The translations under genes and the position numbers were made by a program. A stretch of DNA of 276 bases from Escherichia coli (GTDB lineage: Bacteria; Pseudomonadota; Gammaproteobacteria; Enterobacterales; Enterobacteriaceae): the NCBI RefSeq assembly GCF_003334405.1, contig NZ_QOWM01000072.1. One strand, given 5' to 3'. This document shows, in pieces, positions 1 through 276 of this stretch (the stretch's first letter is position 1; every line of letters begins with the position of its first letter). A model generated the notes under the pieces. That model was given only the letters and a program-made list of their open reading frames with translations. It had not been told where the DNA came from and searched no databases.

Positions 1-28
1 GGGAACCTGCGGTTGGATCACCTCCTTA
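1..28 (+). rRNA. rrs: 16S (small subunit) ribosomal RNA, 3'-terminal 28 nt; the gene is truncated at the 5' side by the window edge
   Basis: Seen in sequence: GGGAACCTGCGGTTGGATCACCTCCTTA at 1-28 is the universally conserved bacterial 16S 3' terminus (helix 45 3' strand plus single-stranded tail), with the anti-Shine-Dalgarno core CCTCC at 21-25 and the mature end ...CCTCCTTA-3' at 28. Established knowledge: the E. coli 16S rRNA ends with this sequence. The specific operon (rrsA-H) cannot be assigned from 28 nt. Confidence 0.93.
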
Positions 29-199
29 CCTTAAAGAAGCGTACTTTGCAGTGCTCACACAGATTGTCTGATGAAAAGTGAATAGCAAGGCGTTTACGCG
101 TTGGGAGTGAGGCTGAAGAGAATAAGGCCGTTCGCTTTCTATTAATGAAAGCTCACCCTACACGAAAATATCACGCAACGCGTGATAAGCAATTTTCGT
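29..199 (+). other. 16S-23S internal transcribed spacer (ITS1), 5' portion, of the tRNA-Glu spacer type; transcribed and removed during processing, non-coding
   Basis: Seen in sequence: it lies between the 16S 3' end (28) and the tRNA 5' end (200), and has no long ORF. Established knowledge: enterobacterial rrn operons carry either tRNA-Glu or tRNA-Ile plus tRNA-Ala in this spacer. The spacer text (CCTTAAAGAAGCGTACTTTG...GCTGAAGAGAATAAGGCCGTTCGCTTTCTATTAATGAAAGCTCACCCTACACGAAAATATCACGCAACGCGTGATAAGCAATTTTCGT) matches my recollection of the E. coli tRNA-Glu type spacer; this was not verified by alignment. Confidence 0.85.
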
Positions 200-275
200 G
201 TCCCCTTCGTCTAGAGGCCCAGGACACCGCCCTTTCACGGCGGTAACAGGGGTTCGAATCCCCTAGGGGACGCCA
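200..275 (+). tRNA. tRNA-Glu, anticodon UUC (decodes GAA/GAG), 76 nt with encoded 3' CCA; spacer tRNA of an rrn operon (one of the gltT/gltU/gltV/gltW paralogs in E. coli, paralog not assignable from this window)
   Basis: Seen in sequence, a full cloverleaf folded by hand: acceptor stem 200-206 (GTCCCCT) pairs perfectly with 265-271 (AGGGGAC); discriminator G272; CCA at 273-275; D stem 209-212/222-225 with a 9-nt D loop at 213-221; anticodon stem 227-231 (CCGCC) pairs with 239-243 (GGCGG); 7-nt anticodon loop CTTTCAC at 232-238 with anticodon TTC at 234-236, preceded by T233 and followed by A237; 4-nt variable loop at 244-247; T stem 248-252 (AGGGG) pairs with 260-264 (CCCCT); T loop TTCGAAT at 253-259 (the canonical T-Psi-C-R-A motif). 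Established knowledge: the sequence matches E. coli tRNA-Glu as I recall it. Confidence 0.96.
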
Positions 276-276
276 C

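What the first reader, a model, noticed from the sequence alone, without database searches (positions are those of the whole stretch)
29..199. A few spacer positions may differ from the E. coli K-12 reference (unverified)
From memory, reference E. coli spacers read ...CTTTGTAGTGCTC... and ...GTCTGATAGAAAGTGAAAAGCAAGG... where this window has CTTTGCAGTGCTC (around 45-57) and GTCTGATGAAAAGTGAATAGCAAGG (around 66-90). If real, these would be ordinary inter-operon or inter-strain ITS polymorphisms, useful only for typing. My recollection of the reference is not reliable at single-base resolution, so this is flagged with low confidence.
Basis: inference. Interest (0 to 1): 0.1.

Follow-up and report, generated by a model that had tools for sequence, protein, structure and literature searches.

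The report
Ordinary E. coli rrnG spacer allele

Summary
The window holds the 16S rRNA 3' end (1-28), a 171-nt spacer (29-199) and tRNA-Glu(UUC) (200-275). All 276 bases are identical to the rrnG operon (rrsG-gltW) of the E. coli K-12 MG1655 reference. They are also identical to the same locus in many other E. coli strains.

They are the rrnB versions, and the second string is also in rrnE. Window and rrnB differ at exactly four sites: 49 C/T, 73 G/A, 74 A/G and 83 T/A. So these are differences between operons of one genome, not departures from K-12.

In the predicted leader-trailer helix that RNase III cuts to release pre-16S, sites 49 and 83 are unpaired in both alleles. Sites 73/74 swap G·U+A-U for A-U+G·U at the same predicted energy, so the changes look neutral.

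The exact allele occurs in about 1,293 of 5,426 complete E. coli genomes. Its GA...T signature also occurs in Citrobacter and Phytobacter Glu spacers.

Verdict: real, already known, and useful only for operon or strain typing.

The parts
1..28 (+). 3' end of 16S rRNA, including the anti-Shine-Dalgarno CACCTCCTTA
   Evidence: Rfam SSU_rRNA_bacteria model positions 1506-1533. Annotated 16S ends here in all exact-match genomes.
29..199 (+). 16S-tRNA-Glu internal transcribed spacer, long form (171 nt), rrnG allele
   Evidence: Identical to K-12 rrnG. It has the same length as rrnB, against 85 nt in rrnC and rrnE.
29..61 (+). 33-nt 3' trailer retained on the 17S precursor; the RNase III cut is inferred after position 61
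   Evidence: 17S rRNA carries 115 extra nt at the 5' end and 33 at the 3' end (PMC3996153). Predicted leader-trailer duplex pairs trailer +33/+34 with leader -117/-118. The cleavage position is inferred, not measured here.
49..49 (+). Variable site: C in the window, rrnG, rrnC, rrnD, rrnE and rrnH; T in rrnB; A in rrnA
   Evidence: Unpaired in the predicted processing helix in both rrnG and rrnB. Also C/A/T among E. coli strains.
73..74 (+). Variable dinucleotide: GA in the window, rrnG, rrnA, rrnD and rrnH; AG in rrnB, rrnC and rrnE
   Evidence: It pairs with leader UU at -129/-130 as G·U+A-U or A-U+G·U, with identical duplex energy of -70.1 kcal/mol.
83..83 (+). Variable site: T in the window and rrnG only among the K-12 Glu operons; A in rrnB, rrnC and rrnE
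   Evidence: Unpaired in the predicted helix in both alleles. T is also present in Citrobacter youngae and Phytobacter ursingii Glu spacers.
94..199 (+). 106-nt segment specific to the long-form spacer (rrnB and rrnG), replaced by 20 nt (CTTGCGAAGCAGACTGATAC) in rrnC and rrnE. By my recollection of Harvey et al. 1988 this is the 'spacer loop' (rsl). It contains none of the four variable sites.
   Evidence: Alignment A1 and sequences. It folds into two hairpin domains. The paper is cited in PMC4696680 but could not be read.
200..275 (+). tRNA-Glu (anticodon UUC) with encoded CCA; identical in all four K-12 Glu operons
   Evidence: ARAGORN, Rfam tRNA 60.1 bits, alignment A1.

Best explanation
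The window is the rrnG-type copy of the E. coli 16S-tRNA-Glu spacer. E. coli has seven rrn operons whose spacers are near-identical paralogues. Four operons carry tRNA-Glu, and two of those (rrnB and rrnG) carry the long 171-nt form. Its 5' part pairs with the 16S leader to form the helix that RNase III cuts, 33 nt after the 16S 3' end. The tRNA is then excised. The four variable sites sit at positions that are unpaired or wobble-tolerant in that helix, so they are effectively neutral. They persist as paralogue and strain markers, shuffled occasionally by gene conversion between operons. Shown here: the identity to rrnG, the exact list of differences, the allele frequencies and the predicted pairing. 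Inferred: neutrality, the RNase III cut position and the role of gene conversion.
For: The window is 276/276 identical to K-12 MG1655 rrnG in two assemblies. The recalled 'reference' strings are exact in rrnB. There are exactly four substitutions against rrnB. Three exact-match strains that were examined all have the allele between clpB and kgtP, which is the rrnG locus. The rrnG spacer bases 29-76 are identical to those of the Ile/Ala operons rrnD and rrnH, after which the sequence is Glu-type, giving a mosaic pattern. The leader-trailer duplex is predicted at -70.1 kcal/mol for both the rrnG and rrnB alleles; sites 49 and 83 are unpaired and 73/74 swap a wobble pair for a Watson-Crick pair. 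The exact 81-nt allele is the best match in about 1,293 of 5,426 complete E. coli genomes, the rrnB allele in about 711, and a long-form spacer is present in 2,791. The GA...T state is also found in Citrobacter youngae and Phytobacter ursingii Glu spacers. Gene conversion between E. coli rrn operons has been measured experimentally, at about 3.6e-4 per genome per generation (PMC8022953). Spacer sequence differences among the four Glu operons are already documented (PMC5179076 S3 Fig; PMC4696680).
Against: Nothing contradicts it. Several caveats apply. The window is too short to show its own flanking genes, so the assignment to the rrnG locus rests on sequence identity and on three sampled genomes. 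The source strain cannot be named, because well over a thousand genomes share the allele. Neutrality rests on a thermodynamic prediction, not on processing assays. The population counts come from BLAST identity bands for the best place per record, so they are approximate. That mutation-accumulation study saw no conversions in rrnG itself.
Confidence: 0.95

Rival explanations
1. The differences are inter-strain polymorphisms: the window comes from a non-K-12 strain or a related species whose spacer has diverged from K-12.
For: The same 276 nt occur in many non-K-12 isolates from humans, poultry, pigs and water, so the source need not be K-12. Other strains do show further spacer variants at 43, 49 and 80.
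Against: K-12 itself carries the window sequence exactly at rrnG. No strain divergence is therefore needed to explain any of the four sites. All four are differences between paralogous copies in one genome.
Confidence: 0.03
2. The apparent differences are errors in the first reader's memory of the reference.
Against: Both recalled strings are present letter for letter in K-12 rrnB. The recollection was accurate but referred to a different operon.
Confidence: 0.01
3. The rrnG-specific bases are functional: they tune processing or expression of the rrnG transcript or its tRNA-Glu differently from rrnB. T83, unique to rrnG among the K-12 Glu operons, is the main candidate.
For: The haplotype is stable at the same locus in unrelated strains. 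The GA...T signature is conserved in two other genera. The published literature argues for functional heterogeneity among rrn operons in general.
Against: The predicted processing helix has identical energy for both alleles, and the sites are unpaired or wobble-compatible. Many E. coli genomes lack the long-form spacer or carry other combinations. No known protein- or RNase-recognition element is affected, as far as established knowledge of the 16S processing stem goes.
Confidence: 0.02

Closest known systems
E. coli K-12 MG1655 rrnG operon, rrsG-gltW spacer (NC_000913.3 2729445-2729615, complement)
   Same: Every base of the window, 276/276, including the 171-nt spacer.
   Different: Nothing.
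E. coli K-12 rrnB operon, rrsB-gltT spacer (the classic textbook rrn sequence)
   Same: Same long-form architecture, same 171-nt length, the same 106-nt long-form segment and the same tRNA-Glu; 272/276 identical.
   Different: Four substitutions at 49, 73, 74 and 83.
E. coli K-12 rrnC and rrnE short-form ITS-Glu (85-nt 16S-tRNA spacer)
   Same: Same 16S end, the same first roughly 65 spacer bases apart from a few substitutions, and the same tRNA-Glu.
   Different: The 106-nt segment 94-199 is replaced by 20 nt. They carry T at 43, AG at 73-74 (rrnC also has G at 75) and A at 83.
E. coli K-12 rrnD and rrnH ITS (Ile/Ala type)
   Same: The first 48 spacer bases (window 29-76) are identical to the window, including C49 and GA73-74.
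   Different: From position 77 onwards the sequence is different and leads to tRNA-Ile and tRNA-Ala.

Membership tests
E. coli rrn ITS, tRNA-Glu type, long form, rrnG allele | Begins immediately after the 16S rRNA 3' end | tested here: met
   Rfam SSU model end at window 28. The annotated 16S end coincides in matching genomes.
E. coli rrn ITS, tRNA-Glu type, long form, rrnG allele | A single tRNA-Glu(UUC) follows the spacer | tested here: met
   ARAGORN places it at 200-275. It is identical to gltT, gltU, gltV and gltW.
E. coli rrn ITS, tRNA-Glu type, long form, rrnG allele | 171-nt 16S-tRNA spacer containing the 106-nt long-form segment, not the 85-nt short form | tested here: met
   Alignment A1 against rrnB, rrnG (long) and rrnC, rrnE (short).
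E. coli rrn ITS, tRNA-Glu type, long form, rrnG allele | Haplotype C49 / G73 A74 / T83, which distinguishes rrnG from rrnB in K-12 | tested here: met
E. coli rrn ITS, tRNA-Glu type, long form, rrnG allele | Chromosomal position between clpB and kgtP | not testable with these tools
   The window has no flanking genes. In three genomes with an exact match the sequence lies between clpB and kgtP.
E. coli K-12 rrnB spacer allele | T49 / A73 G74 / A83 | tested here: not met
   The window differs at all four sites.
16S rRNA RNase III processing stem (leader-trailer helix) | Extended complementarity between the spacer 5' part and the 16S leader, with a staggered cut site near -115/+33 | tested here: met
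   Predicted duplex of -70.1 kcal/mol using the rrnG leader from K-12; trailer +33/+34 pairs with leader -117/-118. This is consistent with the 115-nt and 33-nt extensions of 17S rRNA (PMC3996153). The leader itself is not in the window.
16S rRNA RNase III processing stem (leader-trailer helix) | Actual cleavage by RNase III at this site | not testable with these tools
   This needs an experiment. It is established for E. coli rrn transcripts in general.

The most novel reading that the evidence does not exclude
The rrnG haplotype, in particular T83 and the GA73-74 state shared with Citrobacter and Phytobacter, is maintained by selection because it gives the rrnG transcript operon-specific processing or tRNA-Glu maturation behaviour. 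On this reading it is not a neutral paralogue marker.
Probability: 0.02. Interest if true: 0.25.

Novelty: already known. Interest (0 to 1): 0.03.

Why it matters
It matters very little. The result fixes the identity of the window as the rrnG-type long ITS-Glu of E. coli. It also shows that the four single-base "differences" are paralogue markers already present in the reference genome. Their practical value is for operon-resolved or strain-level ITS typing. They are also a reminder that "the E. coli reference spacer" is really seven sequences, so any comparison must be made against all copies.

Tried and rejected
1. Sequencing or assembly error: rejected, because the identical sequence is present in well over a thousand independent complete genomes.
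3. A compensatory change in the 16S leader matching the spacer differences: checked and not found. The rrnG and rrnB leaders are identical across the pairing region (they differ at one base near the 16S 5' end, outside it), and the spacer changes are tolerated without compensation.
4. Reading Harvey et al. 1988 on the spacer loop: the paper is not held, and the phrase 'ribosomal spacer loop' returned no papers. The link to 'rsl' therefore rests on my own knowledge, on the 106-nt versus 20-nt length match seen, and on the citation.
5. The related-genera scan used an exact 25-mer degenerate at only three sites. It can only find species that keep the rest of the motif, and it returned just 7 loci. 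It shows that the GA...T state exists outside Escherichia, but it is not a survey.
6. A search for mosaic or ECOR ITS papers returned nothing specific to E. coli ITS-Glu.

Full report
**What is in the window.** The 276 bases read as three parts. Positions 1-28 are the last 28 nt of 16S rRNA (Rfam SSU_rRNA_bacteria model positions 1506-1533). Positions 29-199 are a 171-nt spacer. Positions 200-275 are a tRNA-Glu with anticodon UUC and an encoded CCA. The finding's coordinates, 29-199, are exactly the 16S-to-tRNA-Glu internal transcribed spacer.

**Checking the observation.**
CTTTGCAGTGCTC lies at 44-56, one base off the stated 'around 45-57'. GTCTGATGAAAAGTGAATAGCAAGG lies at 66-90.
- I fetched all seven rrn spacers from the E. 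coli K-12 MG1655 reference record NC_000913.3. The two 'reference' strings recalled from memory are also real. CTTTGTAGTGCTC occurs only in rrnB. GTCTGATAGAAAGTGAAAAGCAAGG occurs in rrnB and rrnE.
- The window and K-12 rrnB have the same length and differ at exactly four positions: 49 (C vs T), 73 (G vs A), 74 (A vs G) and 83 (T vs A).

**The window does not differ from K-12 as a whole.**
- A megablast against 5,426 complete E. coli genomes gives 100% identity over all 276 bases to many strains. These include K-12 MG1655, C600 and J53.
- In MG1655 the match lies between clpB and kgtP, which is the rrnG operon (rrsG-gltW).
- A direct string comparison confirms that the window equals NC_000913.3 2729368-2729643 on the minus strand.
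Its memory was accurate, and it was a memory of rrnB.

**How the four sites sit among the seven K-12 operons.**
- Site 49: the window's C is the majority state (rrnC, D, E, G, H). T is private to rrnB and A is private to rrnA.
- Sites 73-74: the window's GA is shared with the three Ile/Ala operons (rrnA, D, H). The other Glu operons (rrnB, C, E) have AG.
- Site 83: T is private to rrnG among the K-12 Glu operons.
- Spacer positions 29-76 of the window are identical to rrnD and rrnH, after which the sequence becomes Glu-type. This mosaic is what is expected for paralogues that exchange segments. Gene conversion between E. coli rrn operons has been measured directly at about 3.6e-4 per genome per generation (PMC8022953).
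- All four sites lie upstream of the 106-nt segment (94-199) that distinguishes the long spacers of rrnB and rrnG from the short ones of rrnC and rrnE, where 20 nt stand in its place. From my own knowledge, this 106-nt versus 20-nt difference is the 'spacer loop' (rsl) polymorphism of Harvey et al. 1988. That paper is cited in PMC4696680, but I could not read it.

**Functional context.**
- The 5' part of this spacer pairs with the 16S leader to form the helix cut by RNase III. The cut leaves the 17S precursor with 115 extra nt at its 5' end and 33 at its 3' end (PMC3996153). It should therefore fall after window position 61.
- I took the 175-nt leaders of each K-12 operon and computed the best leader-trailer duplex.
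- For both rrnG and rrnB the duplex energy is -70.1 kcal/mol, and trailer +33/+34 pairs with leader -117/-118.
- Position 49 is an unpaired mismatch in both alleles, and so is position 83.
- Positions 73/74 face leader UU and simply exchange G·U+A-U for A-U+G·U.
- No compensatory change in the leader is present or needed.
- The four differences are therefore predicted to be structurally neutral. This is a thermodynamic prediction and not an assay.
- On its own, the spacer folds into hairpin domains with a modest z-score of -2.1.

**Population and phylogenetic spread.**
- I used an 81-nt query (window 40-120), for which 99% identity or more means an exact match. The window's allele is the best match in about 1,293 of the 5,426 genomes. 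The rrnB allele is the best match in about 711. A long-form spacer is present at all in 2,791. These figures come from BLAST identity bands for the best place per record and are approximate.
- In two further unrelated strains with exact matches, the sequence is again between clpB and kgtP.
- Sampled near-matches show other variable sites (43 A/T, 49 C/A/T, 80 G/A) but keep the GA...T signature. One strain's best match to the window was a copy identical to the K-12 rrnB allele over the 220 nt compared.
- One exact-pattern scan of species-representative genomes allowed either state at 73, 74 and 83. It found the GA...T state in all five Glu spacers retrieved from Citrobacter youngae and Phytobacter ursingii, which are short-form spacers.
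- This suggests the rrnG state is old and the AG...A state of rrnB, C and E is derived. The scan only finds species that conserve the rest of the 25-mer, so this is a hint and not a survey.

**Comparison with what is known.** The window is a member of the E. coli ITS-Glu long-form family and, within it, carries the rrnG allele. Every defining feature that could be tested is met. The rrnB allele is excluded by four mismatches. Sequence differences among the four Glu-type spacers are already documented (PMC5179076 S3 Fig). Nothing here is new.

**Verdict.**
The window does not deviate from K-12; it is K-12's rrnG copy, shared with many other strains.
- Novelty: already known.
- Interest: very low.
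- The only non-trivial reading left open is that the rrnG-specific bases have an operon-specific function. I rate this at about 2%.

Noticed in passing
L017 (JAHAYL010000010.1, 'MAG: Oxalobacter sp. isolate MBin.057'), 9676-13266: A contig binned as Oxalobacter carries a complete Enterobacteriaceae-type rrn segment: 16S end, tRNA-Glu, 23S and 5S. Its spacer is identical to E. coli K-12 rrnE for 359 nt. The adjoining 8 kb (L017:1-8000) has no megablast match in any complete E. coli genome. This looks like a chimeric contig or a mis-binned one.
   Followed up: partly
L014 (E. coli strain E69, CP089930.1), around 12508-12720: The tRNA-Glu copy here reads GAATCCCTAGGGG, one C fewer in the T-arm than the invariant GAATCCCCTAGGGG. 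The spacer also has extra substitutions (AAACGT, TTGAAG). This is probably a homopolymer sequencing error in that assembly.
   Followed up: no
window 1-276 versus the E. coli genome collection: Only 2,791 of 5,426 complete E. coli genomes have any spacer covering at least 80% of the window. About half of the sequenced strains therefore lack the long (106-nt segment) form of ITS-Glu in every operon.
   Followed up: partly
window 1-276 versus the E. coli genome collection: Ten matching places lie on records labelled as plasmids, which means rRNA-spacer sequence on plasmid records. They could be real rrn fragments or mis-assigned replicons.
   Followed up: no
window 162-199: The last 38 nt of the spacer form a strong nested hairpin (CACGAAAAUAUCACGC-AAC-GCGUGAU...AUUUUCGU). 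Its 3' arm ends directly at the tRNA-Glu 5' end, so the RNase P site abuts a stable helix in the long-form spacers.
   Followed up: no
literature (PMC4696680, PMC5179076) versus NC_000913.3 annotation: Papers based on strain W3110 list rrnD as a Glu operon and rrnE as an Ile/Ala operon. This is the reverse of the MG1655 annotation used here. It arises from the W3110 inversion between rrnD and rrnE, and it is a naming trap when comparing spacer alleles.
   Followed up: yes
L017 12813-12921: The Rfam family StyR-44 ('Salmonella Typhi npcRNA 44') matches the tRNA-Glu-to-23S part of the spacer, just downstream of the region covered by the window.
   Followed up: no
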